The notes beneath the pieces were generated by a model. It was not told the DNA's origin. It saw nothing but the letters and a program-made list of their open reading frames with translations, and ran no database searches. From Escherichia phage vB_EcoM_VR25: a stretch of 64,000 nucleotides of DNA. The stretch's first letter is position 1, and every line of letters begins with the position of its first letter. The translations under genes were made by a program, and so were the position numbers. Positions 1,544-12,326 of the stretch are shown in pieces. The stretch lies in sequence record NC_028925.1, one strand, 5' to 3'.

Positions 1544-2072
1544 TTTGAACCCCTTTAGCGTATTCACGGCATTCTTTAATAAAACGATTAAGCTTACGCT
1601 GCTGTTTACGACTTTCTAATGTATATTCGTCGGCCAAAATAGTAAGCTCATCTTTATCGTAATTTTTAATATCAGAGTAAGATGGTCTACGGTCAACCAT
1701 TCCAAATACATCGCCATTTTCTAGCGCTACATAACATACTAAATGGTAATCATCATCTGCTATATTAAGAAGCACACAATCATCGCTCTCGTTTAACGCA
1801 TACACAGAATAGCGTAATCCAGCGAATTCCACTCGTTGAATACCCAGATTTACATCAATAATTTCCAAGGCATCTGCGAAAGAAAGGTCTTCAGCTAAAG
1901 CAAAAATAAAAGGCAATTTTGTAGTATCGCCACGGCTAGTTGTTCTTCTTAAGAAATCATTGGAATAACCCAAGTCACCGCGGATTCTGTAAAGAACTGT
2001 ATTAGTTTCAGTAGCAAGGCCACTACCGCCAAACCAGTCTACATTTGATATAAGGTCAGTATATAAGCTCAT
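1518..2072 (-). CDS. hypothetical protein
   Basis: ORF track 1518..2090 trimmed to ATG at 2070-2072 with GGAGAGGAG RBS. Confidence 0.5.
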   Translation of the reverse strand: MSLYTDLISNVDWFGGSGLATETNTVLYRIRGDLGYSNDFLRRTTSRGDTTKLPFIFALAEDLSFADALEIIDVNLGIQRVEFAGLRYSVYALNESDDCVLLNIADDDYHLVCYVALENGDVFGMVDRRPSYSDIKNYDKDELTILADEYTLESRKQQRKLNRFIKECREYAKGVQNANVISAR

Positions 2073-2093
2073 AATTTTCTCCTCTCCCAATTA

Positions 2094-2116
2094 GGGGGCA
2101 AAGCCCCCTTTATCTT
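2094..2116. terminator. GC hairpin GGGGGC-aaa-GCCCCC with T-run on plus side
   Basis: perfect 6-bp inverted repeat between two minus-strand genes; U-tract is on the plus-strand side, so function on the minus transcript is uncertain. Confidence 0.3.
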
Positions 2117-2708
2117 ACTTAAGTGAATTGATGTATTCTTCAATGTCAGCGGATGTGGTATCCACACCAACCTGTGGACCTTTGAAGGTTTCAACACGCA
2201 TCAGAGTGTCTTCAATATCAATCTTAGTCAATGCAGCGATTTCAACAACATCATCTGCGGTTGCAATACCTAGGGCAGACACCTTACGGGTTTCGCGGAT
2301 GTATTCCAGTTTAACAGCTAGTTCCTGACGAGAGTCATCCAGCTCTTTAACTTTCAATTTAATTTCATTACGCATTTCAACATAATCATCTGCCTTCTTA
2401 CGAAGTTGTTTAGCAGTGCGACGATACAGGAGACCCAGTTTAGCATGGACCTGGACATCAGCACCATCAGCAATCAGTTTACGAATTTCACGCTCTTTTG
2501 AAGCGGCGAGCTGGTCTTTTTCATTCGCTAACTCGCGGATGCGTTTTTCTTCATTAACAGACTTAACGTGGGCAGTCTGGAGCTCAGTAATCTTGTCAAT
2601 CAGGGTAGAAGCCGCTTTAGTATATTGGTCTTCAATAGACAGGTTTTGTGCCATTGCAGTACCCAGTTTGGAGCGGATGAATTCAACAAGTTTCTTTAAA
2701 GTATTCAT
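2115..2708 (-). CDS. hypothetical protein, probably coiled-coil (K/E/R-rich heptad-like sequence)
   Basis: ORF track 197 aa. Confidence 0.55.
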
Positions 2709-2784
2709 GGTATTTCCTTCAGTTGGTTAATGTTTTATTATCCAGGGAACATACTATCATGTTCCCGTTAAAGCGTACACTGAT

Positions 2785-3090
2785 TTAGATTTTATTTTCC
2801 TGCACACCATAGTAAAGTTCATCAGACACGATATTCAGGATGCGGCGAACATATTCATCATGGTAACGACATTCAAAATCAAATTCAACTGTAGTTTCTG
2901 CTTCACGAGTAAACTTAACAACCACATTCAGGTGGTTAACAACTTTAGTAAAGCTGTCAGTAAAGAATTCTTTTGCTACTGCTTGTTGTACTTGTACTTT
3001 GAACTTAGTGTTGCGAATCATGTTTTCAGCTGATGCGAAATTACCAGTTTTATCAAAGTCAACAAGCGCCAGGTTGATGATGAATTTCAT
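2785..3090 (-). CDS. hypothetical protein
   Basis: ORF track 101 aa; conserved leader ...ATACTGAGTTACCAAATAAAACTGGAGAATAAA-ATG directly upstream. Confidence 0.55.
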   Translation of the reverse strand: MKFIINLALVDFDKTGNFASAENMIRNTKFKVQVQQAVAKEFFTDSFTKVVNHLNVVVKFTREAETTVEFDFECRYHDEYVRRILNIVSDELYYGVQENKI

Positions 3091-3107
3091 TTTATTCTCC
3101 AGTTTTA

Positions 3108-3158
3108 TTTGGTAACTCAGTATGGAATCATTATGCCTTAAAGCAGGGGGCTTGTATA
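3108..3158 (-). promoter_or_regulatory. early promoter-like -10 (CATAAT) plus conserved leader cassette
   Basis: 24-mer TAACTCAGTATGGAATCATTATGC (plus-strand spelling) repeated at 3113, 3641, 4529; sits immediately upstream of the gene start at 3090. Confidence 0.45.
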
Positions 3159-3168
3159 CCCCCTTTTT
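3146..3168. terminator. GC hairpin GGGGG-cttgtata-CCCCC followed by TTTTT (plus side)
   Basis: inverted repeat read directly; lies between gene end 3172 and the promoter cassette. Confidence 0.35.
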
Positions 3169-3171
3169 GAA

Positions 3172-3615
3172 TTAAATTTCAAATTCTTTGCGGAAGTTGG
3201 AAGCATAAGATTGAACAGATGCTTTGTTGAATCCAAACTCACGCACAATCATATCAATAACAGCTCTGCGAGCAGCACCATTAGACATATTAACAGTTTT
3301 GAACATATCATAGCATAAATCTTTGTTGCTCATACCGGAGCGTTTAGGTGCCTTACGCTCAGCTTTTGGTTCAGCTTTAGGAGTAGGTTTAACTTCTGGT
3401 TTAACCTGCCCATCATTCAGACCTTTAAAAATTTTACCTGCCAGAGTTGCCAGTTTAGCAGCTTCACCACGAGTGATACCAAATACTGCCGGGTTAAATG
3501 AAATACCTTCAGCTGTCAGACGTTTGAAGAACATACGCGCTGCGGATTGCGCTTCAGCTTCAGAAGAGTTGTTTAATGCCAGTTTAACGTACTTAACCAG
3601 TTTTGAAGTTTTCAT
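3172..3615 (-). CDS. hypothetical protein; lysine/proline-rich linker; C-terminal domain shared with 4068..4493
   Basis: ORF track 147 aa; C-terminus ...AARRAVIDMIVREFGFNKASVQSYASNFRK. Confidence 0.55.
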   Translation of the reverse strand: MKTSKLVKYVKLALNNSSEAEAQSAARMFFKRLTAEGISFNPAVFGITRGEAAKLATLAGKIFKGLNDGQVKPEVKPTPKAEPKAERKAPKRSGMSNKDLCYDMFKTVNMSNGAARRAVIDMIVREFGFNKASVQSYASNFRKEFEI

Positions 3616-4067: not shown

Positions 4068-4493
4068 TTATTTTTGAGCTTTGCGGAAGTTGGAAGCATA
4101 AGACTGAACAACAGTCTTTTTGATATCATGGGTGGTAACCAGAACATCAATCAGAGCGCGGCGTGCTGCATTATCATTCATATCAATTTCTGCAAATGCC
4201 TGGAAGCAAATGTCACGGGCGTTACCAGATTTGGACTGGATTTTTTCTTCTTTAACTTCTTCAATTGGGAATTCAATCATTTCAGCTTGGATTAATTCAA
4301 TGATGGATTCTTTTGACTGTTTGGTGTTTACCTTCAGTTCAGAATTAAGGGACTTAGCGATGGCAACAATCTGGGTTGAAGTCAGATGGATAAGTGCATC
4401 TTCACGAATACAGATTTCACATACTTCGTCGGCAACCATTTTGTTAGTGATGCGGGTAACAGAGAATGCAGAGGTCAGGGTCAGAAAGTTCAT
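4068..4493 (-). CDS. hypothetical protein; C-terminal domain paralogous to 3172..3615
   Basis: ORF track 4068..4574 trimmed to ATG at 4491-4493 (GGAG RBS) because a promoter/leader cassette occupies 4525-4573; C-terminus ...AARRALIDVLV...VQSYASNFRK. Confidence 0.5.
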   Translation of the reverse strand: MNFLTLTSAFSVTRITNKMVADEVCEICIREDALIHLTSTQIVAIAKSLNSELKVNTKQSKESIIELIQAEMIEFPIEEVKEEKIQSKSGNARDICFQAFAEIDMNDNAARRALIDVLVTTHDIKKTVVQSYASNFRKAQK

Positions 4494-4524
4494 TTTATTT
4501 CTCCAAAGTTTTGTTTGATTCAGT

Positions 4525-4573
4525 GTGTAACTCAGTATGGAATCATTATGCACCCGGTCAATTCGGATGTACA
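4525..4573 (-). promoter_or_regulatory. early promoter (-35 TGTACA, 17 bp, -10 CATAAT) plus leader
   Basis: minus-strand reading; shares the 24-mer repeat. Confidence 0.45.
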
Positions 4574-4611
4574 CTACTTTTTGAAGAAAATTTCAAATTT
4601 ATTCGGGGTAT

Positions 4612-4640
4612 AAAAAAGCCCCAACCTTTCGGAAGGGGCT
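4612..4640 (-). terminator. rho-independent terminator closing the tRNA cluster transcript
   Basis: hairpin AGCCCC-N12-GGGGCT followed on the minus strand by a U6 run (plus-strand A6 at 4612-4617). Confidence 0.5.
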
Positions 4641-4689
4641 AAGCCTTGCGGCAACCTTGTCGGGGTTCCACCTGCTAGGCAAGTGTTTG

Positions 4690-4783
4690 TACGAAACGCC
4701 GGGATTTGAACCCGGTTATCAAGTAGTTGACGCTACTCAATATTTTTAAAAGGCCATATCTCGACCATATCCGAACGTTCCGT
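4690..4783 (-). ncRNA. tRNA-like element (acceptor-like ends with G-U pair, T-arm CCGGG-TTCAAAT-CCCGG); type unresolved
   Basis: T-arm and acceptor complementarity read by eye; D and anticodon arms could not be folded canonically, so this may be a type II tRNA or a stable RNA like T4 species 1/2. Confidence 0.25.
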
Positions 4784-4957
4784 CAAAAACGCCACTCGGC
4801 TTACGGCAAAGATATTTCCTCGAATCGTTAATTAGGTGCGCCGTTTCAGCTGTGAAATAAGGGACTTTAAGAGGTCAACTCATGTACGCCTTAAAATCGG
4901 GTCTTATTCAGGGAACTTCAGTCCGACGACTTACCGGTAGCGACCCGGCTTCTTGTT

Positions 4958-5033
4958 TGGTCGAGACAGTAGGGATCGAACCTACGACCTAGGACTTAGA
5001 AGGTCCTTGCTCTTCCTTCTGAGCTATGCCTCG
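4958..5033 (-). tRNA. tRNA-Arg (anticodon UCU)
   Basis: full cloverleaf folded by hand: acceptor CGAGGCA/TGTCTCG, D arm GCTC-AGAAGGAA-GAGC, anticodon arm AGGAC-CTTCTAA-GTCCT, T arm GTAGG-TTCGATC-CCTAC, encoded CCA. Confidence 0.7.
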
Positions 5034-5034
5034 T

Positions 5035-5167
5035 GTTTGTTCATAGCGGGGTGGACTCGAACCACCAATATTAAGTCACTCATGCTCCAAGCATGCTAGG
5101 GCACTTACCCCGGACGGAATCGAACCGCATCTACAATACCTATCGCCATGATAATTTAAAATAAGTT
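5035..5167 (-). ncRNA. tRNA-like / stable-RNA candidate region carrying two T-arm-like motifs
   Basis: plus-strand spellings GGTGGACTCGAACCACC (5050-5066) and GGAATCGAACC (5117-5127) are reverse complements of GGTTCGANTCC T-loops; no canonical cloverleaf found by hand. Confidence 0.25.
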
Positions 5168-5241
5168 TGGTGGCCCTGGGTGGAATCGAACCACCATCCA
5201 GCGATTATGAGTCGCTCGCTTGACCGTCCAGCTACAGGGCC
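5168..5241 (-). tRNA. tRNA with anticodon CAU (Met, or Ile if C34 is modified)
   Basis: cloverleaf folded by hand: acceptor GGCCCTG/CAGGGCC, anticodon arm AGCGA-CTCATAA-TCGCT, T arm GGTGG-TTCGATT-CCACC, encoded CCA. Confidence 0.7.
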
Positions 5242-5301
5242 TTAATTCTATTATGAAAGGCTCTTTGAGGGAAGAACCTTTGGTAATAGAGGGTACTTAT
5301 T

Positions 5302-5327
5302 AATAATAACGCGTTTTTATTAAAGCA
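5302..5327 (-). promoter_or_regulatory. middle-promoter-like element (MotA-box-like TGCTTTA, about 11 bp, TATTAT) upstream of the tRNA cluster
   Basis: minus-strand reading; overlaps the stop codon of 5320..5799. Confidence 0.3.
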
Positions 5328-5799
5328 TATCAAGTGCTTTAACGTTCGGAATTTGGATTTCTTCTTCGATGATGTATAATTTTACCCACGAAACTACGCG
5401 CATAAAATCGCTATCATATTCCACTGGCTCGCCCAGTAATTCCTGGAGAGAATATAATAATTCAAATTCCTGGTCATTGTCACCTTCAACCAGGTTTTCC
5501 AGATTTTCAATACAAAGTGTTTTGTTAATGAATTCAGAAGTTAATTGACCAGATTTTACACCAGATTCAATGTGTGCGATAACCAAGTCTTTAACTACGT
5601 CCCATTCCGAATTGCCACATTTATCTGGATAGTTACAATGAGAACCTTGAAAAAGTTCCAGGATATATTTGTACTGCTGGATTTCTTGTTCTTCTACACC
5701 AAATATTGTCTGGGTTTTATAGTTGTCACCATCATTTTCCCAGGTTTCAATTTCAATCACATAACCTTTAGGGATGGTCTGACCAAATTTAATATTCAT
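5320..5799 (-). CDS. hypothetical protein (acidic)
   Basis: ORF track 5320..5805 trimmed to ATG at 5797-5799 with GAAGG RBS. Confidence 0.5.
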   Translation of the reverse strand: MNIKFGQTIPKGYVIEIETWENDGDNYKTQTIFGVEEQEIQQYKYILELFQGSHCNYPDKCGNSEWDVVKDLVIAHIESGVKSGQLTSEFINKTLCIENLENLVEGDNDQEFELLYSLQELLGEPVEYDSDFMRVVSWVKLYIIEEEIQIPNVKALDML

Positions 5800-11723: not shown

Positions 11724-12326
11724 ATGCTTTTTTCATTTTTTAACCCAATTGATTATGATGCTAAAACAATCAGAAAAAACCCTGCATCATTGACGAAAGA
11801 AGATGTCTTAAGCATTCCAATGACAGACATCTTCAGAAATTATCGTGCTTACTTTGATAAGGTCGCGGTCAATTATACACCAAAAACCTATTACATCGCC
11901 GGAGCTCCGAGACCTGAAGAATTATCATATCAGCTTTACGGTAACACGCAGCTATATTGGGTTCTCCTTATGCTCAATGATATCTATGACCCTTATTATG
12001 GTTGGCTTTGTACCCAAGAAGCATCGTATCAAGCATCAATTCAGAAATATTCGAATGTCGGGGGTAATCAGGTCCTTTATCATGTGAATGAAGATGGTGA
12101 AAAGTTCTGGAACCTTGTTTCTTATCCTGATAATCCATACACATGGTACGATAAAGGTGACAAGAACAAATTATATCCACAATACGAAGGTCCATTAGCT
12201 GCAGTGGATATCTATGAAGATGCTATCCGTAAAAATGAATACAAACGCGAAATAAAAATAATCGACCCGGAAGATATTGAGTCATTTATTTCCGCACTTA
12301 TCCGTGAAATGGAGAAGGCGCTATGA
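11724..12326 (+). CDS. 53: gp53 baseplate wedge protein
   Basis: ORF track 11694..12326 trimmed to ATG at 11724 preceded by GGAGG; divergent from gene 4 as in T4. Confidence 0.8.
   Translation: MLFSFFNPIDYDAKTIRKNPASLTKEDVLSIPMTDIFRNYRAYFDKVAVNYTPKTYYIAGAPRPEELSYQLYGNTQLYWVLLMLNDIYDPYYGWLCTQEASYQASIQKYSNVGGNQVLYHVNEDGEKFWNLVSYPDNPYTWYDKGDKNKLYPQYEGPLAAVDIYEDAIRKNEYKREIKIIDPEDIESFISALIREMEKAL

What the first reader, a model, noticed from the sequence alone, without database searches (positions are those of the whole stretch)
4612..5327. Reduced tRNA cluster with two clear tRNAs and two unresolved tRNA-like segments
Only tRNA-Arg(UCU) (4958-5033) and a CAU-anticodon tRNA (5168-5241) fold into canonical cloverleaves; T4 carries eight tRNAs. 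Between and beside them are two segments with perfect T-arm-like motifs and acceptor-like complementarity (4690-4783; 5035-5167) that I could not fold into standard tRNAs. They may correspond to the T4 species 1/2 stable RNAs of unknown function, or to degenerate tRNAs. The cluster is bracketed by a middle-promoter-like element (5302-5327) and a terminator (4612-4640).
Basis: partly seen in the sequence, partly recalled or inferred. Interest (0 to 1): 0.45.

Follow-up and report, generated by a model that had tools for sequence, protein, structure and literature searches.

The report
Phage tRNA operon with new tRNA-like RNA
This stretch of a T4-like phage genome is one small RNA operon holding two ordinary tRNAs, the two long-known T4 "species 1 and 2" RNAs of unknown function, and a fifth, unannotated 110-base tRNA-like RNA that is also found in unrelated N4-like phages and matches no described RNA family.

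Summary
ARAGORN and Rfam find only tRNA-Arg(UCU) at 4958-5033 and a CAU tRNA at 5168-5241, both on the minus strand. All five T-loop motifs of the 64-kb window lie at 4702-5192, where 0.31 are expected by chance.

- **Segment 4690-4783** is the 3' two-thirds of a 139-nt homolog of T4 rnaC (species 1 RNA), at 4690-4828.
- **The rnaD homolog** (species 2 RNA) lies at 4835-4956.
- **Segment 5035-5167** is neither a species 1/2 RNA nor a degenerate tRNA. It holds a discrete 109-111-nt element, here called X (5041-5151).

X has an acceptor-like stem abutting a true T-arm. These enclose a second T-arm-like hairpin, a capped stem and a hairpin with a D-loop-like UUGG loop. There is no anticodon arm.

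X is 95-100% identical in three T4-like genera and about 78% identical in N4-like Gamaleyavirus phages. Across 16 distinct sequences, all 416 tested base-pair cells pair, and five pairs show compensatory changes. No Rfam family, tRNA finder or GenBank record recognises X.

X is most likely a stable, non-decoding tRNA mimic cut out of the operon transcript by RNase P. Its function is inferred, not shown.

The parts
5303..5327 (-). MotA-type middle promoter: TGCTTTA (5327-5321), 12-nt spacer, -10 TATTAT (5308-5303)
   Evidence: Read from the sequence. The pattern TGCTTNA-N11-13-TANNNT has 8 matches in the window against 2.68 expected. It is conserved in SP18 and VR5. Activity was not tested.
5168..5241 (-). 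tRNA with anticodon CAU, probably tRNA-Ile2 (lysidine, AUA-reading) rather than tRNA-Met
   Evidence: ARAGORN; Rfam tRNA 62.6 bits. The closest E. coli genes, at 80.5% identity over the full length, are annotated tRNA-Ile.
5041..5151 (-). Element X, a new tRNA-like RNA. Closing acceptor-like stem: 5151-5144 with 5048-5041. hp1, T-arm-like: 5128-5114. hp2, capped stem: 5111-5098. hp3, UUGGA loop, D-loop-like: 5095-5081. True T-arm: 5066-5050. There is no anticodon arm and no encoded CCA.
   Evidence: Alignment A2 of 16 distinct homologs. All 416 cells pair, and 5 pairs have changes on both sides. RNAalifold independently predicts the acceptor stem, hp1, hp3 and the T-arm. The X covariance model scores members at 120-153 bits and ordinary tRNAs at 35 bits or less. 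There is no Rfam hit. The block conserved with PEi20, KLB31 and CkP1 ends at the stem ends.
4958..5033 (-). tRNA-Arg(UCU)
   Evidence: ARAGORN; Rfam 66 bits. It occupies the same position as tRNA-Arg in T4.
4835..4956 (-). Homolog of T4 rnaD (species 2 stable RNA). The 5' and 3' parts are conserved and the centre has diverged.
   Evidence: Alignment with T4 rnaD. It matches 733 phage records and is annotated rnaD in RB6.
4690..4828 (-). Homolog of T4 rnaC (species 1 stable RNA), with a T-arm at 4715-4699 and an acceptor-like closing stem
   Evidence: Alignment with T4 rnaC. It matches 738 records, 669 of them at 95-99% identity, and is annotated rnaC in T4 and RB68. MFE is -51 kcal/mol with z = -4.65.
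4612..4640 (-). Intrinsic terminator: AGCCCC-UU-CC-GAAA-GG-UU-GGGGCU followed by U6
   Evidence: Fold. It aligns with the T4 and SP18 terminator. The simple scan misses it because of the internal U.U mismatches.

Best explanation
Window 5327->4612 (minus strand) is one small-RNA operon of a T4-like (Dhakavirus-type) phage. A MotA-type middle promoter drives five RNA genes in a row, ending at an intrinsic terminator. The genes are tRNA(CAU, probably Ile2), element X, tRNA-Arg(UCU), the rnaD homolog and the rnaC homolog.

The two 'unresolved' segments are different things. One is part of the known species 1 RNA. The other, X, is a previously unannotated RNA family.

X keeps the half of a tRNA that processing enzymes read: a 6-8-bp acceptor-like stem stacked on a 5-bp T-arm. 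In place of the D and anticodon arms it has three hairpins. These are a second T-arm-like hairpin, a capped stem and a hairpin with a D-loop-like UUGG loop.

Inferred mechanism:
- RNase P cuts at the 5' side of each acceptor/T-arm unit of the precursor.
- 3' exonucleases trim the short ACAAACA spacer.
- X is released as a stable RNA of about 110 nt that cannot decode.
- X acts as a tRNA mimic, occupying or diverting a protein that recognises tRNA shape. Candidates are a host tRNA-directed defence nuclease or a tRNA processing or modifying enzyme.

Shown here: the gene order, the homologies, and the conserved fold of X. Inferred: transcription, processing, stability and the mimic function.
For: - **tRNAs:** only two canonical tRNAs are found.
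- **Known RNAs:** the stretch 4957->4690 is collinear with T4 tRNA-Arg/rnaD/rnaC/terminator.
- **Distribution of X:** it is identical in VR5, TH15 and TH22. It is 95-98% identical in Kanagawavirus (PEi20, KLB31) and Karamvirus (CkP1), although the flanks are unalignable. It is 76-80% identical in 28 N4-like Gamaleyavirus records.
- **Fold of X:** on 16 distinct sequences every one of 26 proposed pairs is a standard pair in every sequence (416 of 416 cells). Slid controls give 40-62% and shuffles give 91.6%. There are 29 double-sided changes in 5 pairs, a count reached by 0 of 500 shuffles. RNAalifold recovers four of the helices on its own. hp2 variants also compensate: GGUGGA/UCCACU, GGUAGA/UCUACU and GGGGU/GCCCU.
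- **Stability:** the consensus fold is within 1.6 kcal/mol of the MFE.
- **Context:** X always sits in tRNA clusters, starting 2-16 nt after the CCA of a tRNA in T4-like phages.
- **Family boundary:** the X model separates members (120-153 bits) from tRNAs (35 bits or less).
- **Absence elsewhere:** there is no match in E. coli genomes. No X member was found among the 15 genome-contig loci (one genome per bacterial and archaeal species) that matched an X-derived pattern.
- **Precedent for expression:** the neighbouring rnaC and rnaD are expressed stable RNAs of unknown function in T4 (PMC9697503, PMC3014915).
- **Precedent for recognition:** tRNA-like modules in Y RNAs are substrates of RNase P, the CCA-adding enzyme, TruB and DusA (PMC4201824).
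Against: - No expression, end-mapping or binding data exist for X.
- Single-sequence folding is not better than shuffles (z = -0.8), so support for the fold rests on comparative evidence.
- That evidence comes from only two clades, so several 'compensatory' changes may trace to a single ancestral split.
- The junction helix P2 is thermodynamically unfavourable and shows only one-sided changes.
- The acceptor stem has a mismatch next to the T-arm and an extra -1:73 pair in most T4-like copies, so RNase P cleavage at the expected site is not guaranteed.
- Nothing in the sequence points to a specific protein partner.
- VR5 lacks rnaC, SP18 lacks X, and T4 lacks X, so none of these RNAs is essential.
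Confidence: 0.7

Rival explanations
1. X is a decaying relic of two fused or tandem tRNA genes (a pseudo-tRNA) that is carried along by recombination in tRNA clusters and has no function of its own.
For: - The order T-arm / capped stem / D-like hairpin / T-arm is what the junction of two adjacent tRNAs looks like. PMC4201824 warns about exactly this.
- The X model aligns a cyanophage tRNA junction in this register, at 17 bits.
- X's outer T-arm is 18/19 identical to that of the adjacent CAU tRNA.
- SP18 carries a normal tRNA-Asn in the same slot.
- CkP1 carries what looks like a tRNA 3' half just upstream of X.
Against: - A relic would accumulate helix-breaking changes. Instead all 416 pair cells remain paired at about 22% divergence, with compensatory changes in the acceptor stem, hp1, hp2 and hp3.
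- The conserved block ends precisely at the stem ends in four genera whose flanks are unrelated.
- X is 95-98% identical between genera whose adjacent tRNAs differ.
Confidence: 0.12
2. X is a cis-acting processing or stability element. It is a tRNA-shaped punctuation mark that recruits RNase P to separate and stabilise neighbouring tRNAs, and it has no function once released.
For: - In T4-like phages X always directly follows a tRNA and lies inside a polycistronic tRNA transcript.
- tRNA-like 't-elements' serve this role in plant mitochondria (PMC1920247).
Against: - The adjacent tRNAs are themselves RNase P substrates and need no extra punctuation.
- In G7C, HK2 and EC1-UPM, X lies in an ORF-free region in which ARAGORN finds no tRNA and Rfam finds none in G7C.
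- The three internal hairpins and their invariant loops (UUCGAUU, UUGG) are conserved, although punctuation would need only the acceptor/T-arm unit.
Confidence: 0.1
3. X is a functional decoding tRNA of unusual shape, for example with hp3 as an anticodon arm (loop CUUGGAG, anticodon UGG) or with an intron.
For: X has an acceptor stem, a T-arm and U8-A9-like residues in T4-like copies. The hp3 loop could be read as 7 nt with U33 if its closing C-G pair opens.
Against: - ARAGORN and the Rfam tRNA model (none at E<=10) both fail.
- The hp3 loop is closed to 5 nt by an invariant C-G pair.
- The base that would be position 37 is U in the N4-like copies and in PEi20.
- There is no D-arm at the canonical place.
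- The spacings are incompatible with an L-shape that places hp3 at the decoding end.
Confidence: 0.03

Closest known systems
T4 species 1 RNA (rnaC) and species 2 RNA (rnaD)
   Same: The window carries true homologs of both, at 4690-4828 and 4835-4956, in the T4 order tRNA-Arg / rnaD / rnaC / terminator. Like rnaC, X is a tRNA-cluster RNA with an acceptor-like stem directly abutting a T-arm, no anticodon arm and no encoded CCA. Both are followed by ACAAACAC, and both carry ACUUAAUA just 5' of the T-arm.
   Different: X is not a detectable sequence or model homolog of rnaC. The X model gives rnaC about 10 bits, for the T-arm only, and local alignment equals shuffles. rnaC has one long hairpin plus a 10-bp hairpin. 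X has a second T-arm-like hairpin and a D-like hairpin. rnaC is in 738 phage records and X in 38. X also occurs in N4-like phages, and blastn found no rnaC/rnaD similarity in the ten N4-like loci tested.
YrlA-type bacterial Y RNAs (Rfam RF02553)
   Same: The inner part of X has the same order of modules as the YrlA tRNA-like domain: a T stem-loop, a capped 'acceptor' stem-loop, then a D stem-loop (PMC4201824). The T-loop is UUCGAUU and the D-like loop contains GG.
   Different: There is no RF02553 match on X. The ends of X form an acceptor/T-arm unit, not a Ro60-binding helix with the GNCGAA motif. The U8-A14-type conserved residues are absent from the inner module. No Ro60 gene was looked for. 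X has two T-loops and YrlA has one.
tRNA-like domain of tmRNA
   Same: The topology matches: 5' acceptor strand, short linker with GG, internal domain, T-arm, 3' acceptor strand. G3.U70 is present in 4 of 5 T4-like copies.
   Different: ARAGORN and the Rfam tmRNA models do not match, apart from the T-loops at 9 bits or less. The internal domain is about 70 nt, holds many stop codons and has no tag frame. G3.U70 is absent from all N4-like copies. No CCA is encoded.
Canonical tRNA (RF00005)
   Same: X has an acceptor stem plus a T-arm with a consensus T-loop. It lies in a tRNA cluster with tRNA-like spacing to its neighbours.
   Different: X has no anticodon arm and no D-arm in place, and it is 109-111 nt long. 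Neither ARAGORN nor Infernal detects it.

Membership tests
Canonical tRNA (RF00005) | Recognised by the tRNA covariance model (>=29 bits) or by ARAGORN | tested here: not met
   For X (5041-5151) and for 4690-4828 there is no ARAGORN call and no RF00005 hit, even at E<=10. The two real tRNAs score 66 and 62.6 bits.
Canonical tRNA (RF00005) | Anticodon arm (5-bp stem, 7-nt loop) and D-arm at canonical positions | tested here: not met
   The consensus structure of X has neither. The hp3 loop is 5 nt, closed by an invariant C-G pair.
Canonical tRNA (RF00005) | Seven-bp acceptor stem stacked on a 5-bp T-arm with a UUCRANY loop | tested here: met
   X has 6 conserved pairs, one mismatch and a 5-bp T-stem in tRNA register, with compensatory changes in 3 acceptor pairs. 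rnaC has 7 positions with two U.U mismatches next to its T-arm.
T4 rnaC (species 1 RNA) | Full-length sequence homology to T4 rnaC, and position between rnaD and the operon terminator | tested here: met
   Window 4690-4828 aligns over 139 nt with T4 rnaC. It is 97% identical to records where the feature is annotated rnaC.
T4 rnaC (species 1 RNA) | Membership of X (5041-5151) in the rnaC family | tested here: not met
   The X model scores rnaC at 10 bits. The Smith-Waterman score is 16, against shuffles of 15.1 +/- 2.2.
T4 rnaD (species 2 RNA) | Sequence homology to T4 rnaD, and position directly 3' of tRNA-Arg | tested here: met
   Window 4835-4956 has conserved 5' and 3' blocks and a diverged centre. 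It is 77% identical to the annotated rnaD of RB6 over the full length.
T4 rnaC/rnaD | Accumulates as a stable small RNA in infected cells | not testable with these tools
   Shown for T4 by Northern blot and RNA-seq (PMC9697503). No data exist for this phage.
YrlA / bacterial Y RNA (RF02553) | Match to the family model (gathering score 69 bits) | tested here: not met
   The only hit is 14.5 bits, at 5009-5068, straddling X's 3' end and tRNA-Arg. There is none on X alone.
YrlA / bacterial Y RNA (RF02553) | Terminal helix with the Ro60-binding GNCGAA motif; adjacent Ro60 (rsr) gene | tested here: not met
   The ends of X form the acceptor-like stem next to a T-arm, and no GNCGAA motif is seen there. 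The presence of a Ro60 gene in the window was not examined.
YrlA / bacterial Y RNA (RF02553) | T stem-loop, capped acceptor-like stem-loop and D stem-loop, in that order | tested here: inconclusive
   hp1, hp2 and hp3 have this order and suitable loops. The tRNA tertiary-pair residues are not conserved, and a tRNA-dimer junction gives the same picture (PMC4201824).
tmRNA | Detected by ARAGORN or the Rfam tmRNA models; internal tag reading frame | tested here: not met
   There is no tmRNA call, and only T-loop fragments at 9 bits or less. The internal 70 nt hold multiple stop codons in all frames.
MotA-dependent T4 middle promoter | MotA box (a/t)(a/t)TGCTT(t/c)A placed 12 +/- 1 bp upstream of a TAnnnT -10 element | tested here: met
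   ATGCTTTA, 12 nt, then TATTAT at 5328-5303(-). The consensus is taken from established T4 literature. Activity is not testable here.
Intrinsic (rho-independent) terminator | G+C-rich hairpin followed by a U run | tested here: met
   The hairpin at 4640-4618 with a GAAA loop, followed by U6, is present in the -31.4 kcal/mol fold of 4608-4690. It is homologous to the T4 tRNA-operon terminator.

The most novel reading that the evidence does not exclude
X defines a new class of phage-encoded, anticodon-less tRNA mimics that carry two T-loops. These are exchanged as roughly 110-nt cassettes between unrelated coliphage families (Straboviridae and Schitoviridae). They may be related to a roughly 93-nt double-T-loop element in cyanophage-type tRNA arrays. 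On this reading they work as decoys or inhibitors of host proteins that read tRNA shape, such as tRNA-cleaving defence nucleases or RNase P and modification enzymes. If so, X would also offer a comparative handle on the function of the T4 species 1/2 RNAs, which has been unknown for 50 years.
Probability: 0.2. Interest if true: 0.75.

Novelty: new variant of a known kind. Interest (0 to 1): 0.55.

Why it matters
**Known content.** Most of the locus is already known: two tRNAs plus the rnaC and rnaD homologs. These RNAs have been sequenced since the 1970s. They were still described as of unknown function in 2010, 2022 and 2025 (PMC3014915, PMC9697503, PMC12685909).

**New content.** The new item is X, a structured RNA supported by covariation. 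It is absent from Rfam 15 and carries no RNA annotation in any of the 38 phage records that hold it.

**Why X is of interest.**
- Its presence in both T4-like and N4-like coliphages, as a sharply bounded cassette, points to horizontal spread and selection for the RNA itself.
- Phage tRNA genes are now understood as counter-measures to host tRNA-targeting defences. A non-decoding tRNA mimic in the same operons would therefore be a plausible new type of counter-defence or host-takeover RNA.
- X is small enough to test directly by deletion, Northern blot, RNase P assay and pull-down.
- It also shows that tRNA finders leave real RNA genes unannotated inside phage tRNA clusters.

Tried and rejected
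- **X as a paralog of rnaC: rejected.** The shared ACUUAAUA and ACAAACAC motifs suggested it. However, the X covariance model gives rnaC only 10 bits, and local alignment is no better than shuffles.
- **X as a member of any Rfam family: rejected.** Gathering and E<=10 scans find nothing real. The weak YrlA, tmRNA, Plastid-ycf2 and snoRNA hits are T-loop fragments, antisense tRNA matches or noise.
- **X derived from the host: rejected.** There is no blastn match in 5,426 E. coli genomes. Among the 15 loci returned by a pattern scan of one genome per bacterial and archaeal species, the X model found no member.
- **Search for distant X relatives: none found.** Three IMG/VR pattern scans and one metagenome scan followed by model searches found only T4-like and N4-like copies, with no intermediate scorers. 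The patterns were derived from X, so very divergent relatives could have been missed.
- **Junction helix P2 (GGUA/UAUU): kept only as tentative.** It always pairs but shows only one-sided changes, and it costs 1-4 kcal/mol.
- **rnaC/rnaD homologs in the N4-like ORF-free region: not found** by blastn.
- **Literature on X, or on tRNA-like RNAs of G7C or VR5 phages: nothing found**.
- **Single-sequence folding: uninformative.** The MFE of X mispairs the 3' half.
- **Simple terminator scan: missed the real terminator** and flagged a hairpin inside rnaC instead.
Full report
**What the window is.** The region belongs to a T4-like phage close to Dhakavirus and Gaprivervirus isolates. Megablast of 4400-5500 finds 773 phage records. 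The best are Escherichia phages TH22 and TH15 (94-96% over the whole stretch), VR5 and SP18. All features discussed here lie on the minus strand.

**Checking the observation.**
- ARAGORN on the whole window finds two tRNAs: tRNA-Arg(UCU) at 4958-5033 and a CAU tRNA at 5168-5241.
- Rfam at gathering threshold finds the same two and nothing else in 64 kb.
- The T-loop motif GGTTCRANYCC occurs five times in the window, all at 4702-5192 on the minus strand, against 0.31 expected. The cluster of T-arm-like motifs is therefore real and not chance.
- The promoter-like element reads TGCTTTA (5327-5321), a 12-nt spacer, then TATTAT (5308-5303). That is the MotA-box geometry of T4 middle promoters (established T4 knowledge). 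The pattern is enriched in the window, with 8 matches against 2.7 expected, and it is conserved in SP18 and VR5.
- The terminator at 4640-4612 is a GAAA-capped hairpin followed by U6, and it aligns with the T4 tRNA-operon terminator.
- T4 does carry eight tRNAs, followed by rnaD and rnaC.

**Segment 4690-4783: part of the species 1 RNA gene.**
- The window from tRNA-Arg to the terminator was aligned with T4, SP18 and VR5. It is collinear with T4 tRNA-Arg / rnaD / rnaC / terminator.
- The rnaC homolog is 4828->4690 (139 nt).
- It matches 738 phage records, 669 of them at 95-99% identity, and is annotated rnaC in T4 and RB68.
- It folds far better than shuffles (-51 kcal/mol, z = -4.65). An acceptor-like closing stem directly abuts the T-arm at 4715-4699.
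Its ends are conserved and its centre has diverged. It matches 733 records and is annotated rnaD in RB6.
- Both RNAs are known stable late RNAs of T4 whose function is still unknown (PMC3014915; PMC9697503). A convergent SNP in rnaD was reported during adaptation of a T4-like phage to a semi-permissive host (PMC12685909).
- VR5 has lost rnaC by a clean deletion.

**Segment 5035-5167: a distinct element, X.**
- The segment is not a tRNA by ARAGORN or Rfam, and Rfam gives no credible hit to any of its 4227 families even at E<=10 on the element alone.
- Blastn finds it in only 38 phage records:
  - identical in VR5, TH15 and TH22;
  - 98.6% in TH40;
  - 95-98% in the Kanagawavirus phages PEi20, PEi26 and KLB31 and the Karamvirus phage CkP1;
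  - 76-81% over about 90 nt in 28 N4-like Gamaleyavirus podophages (G7C, EC1-UPM, pSb-1, PhAPEC5/7 and others).
- No record annotates an RNA there.
- Between T4-like genera the similarity starts and stops at the ends of the closing stem (window 5150 to about 5039), while the flanks, including the upstream tRNA, are unrelated. X is therefore a discrete unit of 109-111 nt, at 5151/5150->5042/5041.
- In Kanagawavirus phages and CkP1 it starts 2-3 nt after the CCA of an upstream tRNA or tRNA remnant. In an IMG/VR T4-like contig it follows tRNA-Arg instead.
- In the N4-like phages it lies in an ORF-free region of about 1.2 kb between gp47 and gp48 that ends in a terminator. ARAGORN finds no canonical tRNA in that region in G7C, HK2 or EC1-UPM, and Rfam finds none in G7C.
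- SP18 has an ordinary tRNA-Asn in the slot that X occupies here.

**Structure of X.** Sixteen distinct sequences (5 T4-like, 11 N4-like) were aligned (A2). The helices are:

| Helix | Window coordinates | Notes |
|---|---|---|
| Acceptor-like stem | 5149-5144 with 5048-5043 | Extended by 1-2 pairs in this phage |
| hp1 | 5128-5114 | 4-bp hairpin with a perfect T-loop, UUCGAUU |
| hp2 | 5111-5098 | 5-6-bp capped stem |
| hp3 | 5095-5081 | 5-bp hairpin with invariant loop UUGG(A/U) |
| T-arm | 5066-5050 | True 5-bp T-arm in tRNA register with the acceptor 3' strand |

- For 26 proposed pairs, all 416 cells are standard pairs. Shuffles give 91.6% and slid controls 40-62%.
- Five pairs carry changes on both sides, in 29 cells, a count reached by 0 of 500 shuffles.
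- RNAalifold, given no structure, recovers the acceptor stem, hp1, hp3 and the T-arm.
- hp2 is misaligned by an indel in A2, but its variants compensate: GGUGGA/UCCACU, GGUAGA/UCUACU, AGUGGA/UCCACU and GGGGU/GCCCU.
- The consensus fold is within 1.6 kcal/mol of the MFE for the window copy. Single-sequence folding alone is uninformative.
- A junction helix (GGUA/UAUU) is possible but unsupported beyond one-sided changes, and it is energetically unfavourable. I treat it as tentative.
- Caveat: the sequences form two clades, so several compensatory changes may reflect one ancient split. There is nonetheless independent variation within each clade: acceptor pairs at columns 10/118 and 11/117, hp1 at 30/44, hp2, and T-arm at 97/111.

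**Family boundaries.**
- A covariance model of X scores members at 120-153 bits and ordinary tRNAs at 35 bits or less.
- Nine more members, all of the N4-like type, came from a metagenome pattern scan.
- None came from one genome per bacterial species or from E. coli genomes.
- IMG/VR holds only eight loci with the X-specific pattern.
- X is thus a narrow family, restricted to enterobacterial phages as far as these pattern-limited searches can see.

**Comparison with known RNAs.**
- **rnaC.** X resembles rnaC in kind: a tRNA-cluster RNA with an acceptor/T-arm unit, no anticodon arm and no encoded CCA. It shares two short motifs with it, but homology is not supported.
- **YrlA.** The inner hp1-hp2-hp3 order (T-like, capped stem, D-like) is the order of the tRNA-like module of YrlA Y RNAs (PMC4201824). 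X fails the YrlA model, however, and lacks the Ro-binding helix.
- **tmRNA.** The outer topology resembles the tmRNA tRNA-like domain, but there is no tag frame and no tmRNA match.
- **Possible origin.** The same T / stem / D order arises at the junction of two adjacent tRNAs. X's outer T-arm is 18/19 identical to that of the neighbouring CAU tRNA. The N4-type leader AGAAUUAA equals the leader of that tRNA. An origin from a tRNA pair is therefore plausible. The maintained pairing argues that X is now selected as an RNA.

**Most likely mechanism (inference).**
- The middle promoter drives a precursor of about 690 nt containing tRNA(CAU), X, tRNA-Arg, rnaD and rnaC.
- RNase P cleaves 5' of each acceptor/T-arm unit, and exonucleases trim the short A/C-rich spacers.
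- X accumulates as a non-decoding tRNA mimic of about 110 nt that engages a tRNA-shape-reading protein.
- The precedent is that tRNA-like modules of Y RNAs are handled by RNase P, the CCA-adding enzyme, TruB and DusA (PMC4201824), and that rnaC and rnaD from the same T4 operon are stable RNAs (PMC9697503).
- Which protein X engages, and whether the effect is counter-defence, is unknown.

**Verdict.** The locus is mostly ordinary T4-type content. It also contains one unannotated, comparatively well-supported new tRNA-like RNA family, of moderate interest.

Noticed in passing
window 5168-5241 (-): The CAU tRNA that ARAGORN calls tRNA-Met has as its closest E. coli relatives (80.5% identity, full length) genes annotated tRNA-Ile. 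It is probably a lysidine-dependent AUA-reading tRNA-Ile2, matching the tRNA-Ile of T4.
   Followed up: partly
L108, L109 (~11838-11925 -), L126, L128, L129 (~4690-4782 +), L161, L175, L203, L212 (~643-735 +): A recurrent element of about 93 nt ('Z') fills a tRNA-sized slot in large tRNA arrays of cyanophage-type IMG/VR contigs. It has a 7-bp acceptor stem with compensatory changes, a CACC-UUGGU-GGUG hairpin, and an inner T-arm-like hairpin whose 24 nt nearly equal X's hp1 region. Its outer T-arm is identical to that of N4-type X. ARAGORN and Rfam miss it. The X model gives it only 17 bits, so homology with X is not established.
   Followed up: partly
In 71 of 118 matches ARAGORN called neither T-loop as part of a tRNA. 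Phage tRNA clusters may hold many unannotated non-canonical tRNA-like genes.
   Followed up: no
L004 (G7C) 1966-3191; L011, L013: The Gamaleyavirus region that holds X is about 1.2 kb without ORFs and ends in a terminator. It contains further non-canonical tRNA-like hairpins, for example a 7-bp acceptor-like stem plus UUAGGUUCAACUCCUAA about 50 nt upstream of X. Odd tRNA calls appear in relatives: tRNA-Ile(AAT), tRNA-???, and annotated 'tRNA-OTHER'/'tRNA-Xle'.
   Followed up: partly
window 5040-5034 and 4689-4683 (-): X and the rnaC homolog are both followed by the same trailer, ACAAACAC, and both carry ACUUAAUA just 5' of their T-arm. KLB31's X has the same trailer. This could be a shared processing signal. 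It is not evidence of homology, because alignment equals shuffles.
   Followed up: partly
window 5249-5242 and L004 2481-2488: The 8-nt leader AGAAUUAA before the window's CAU tRNA is identical to the leader before X in N4-like phages. X's outer T-arm is 18/19 identical to that tRNA's T-arm. This hints that X's outer shell derives from this tRNA lineage.
   Followed up: no
L002 (VR5) 2150-2175 versus window 4835-4685: VR5 has X and rnaD but lacks rnaC through a clean deletion that joins the end of rnaD to the CACUUGCC trailer. SP18 has rnaC and rnaD but carries tRNA-Asn instead of X, plus an extra 80-codon ORF between tRNA-Arg and rnaD. The operon is built from exchangeable cassettes.
   Followed up: partly
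L006 (CkP1) ~2456-2497: Just upstream of X in CkP1 lies the 3' half of a tRNA nearly identical to PEi20's CAU tRNA, ending in CCA. ARAGORN finds no tRNA there, and an annotated CDS (CkP1_0150) runs into it.
   Followed up: no
window 4685-4669 (-): A 7-bp hairpin (CACUUGC-CUA-GCAGGUG) lies between rnaC and the terminator. It is conserved in T4, SP18 and VR5. Its function is unknown; it may be a 3' processing or stability element.
   Followed up: no
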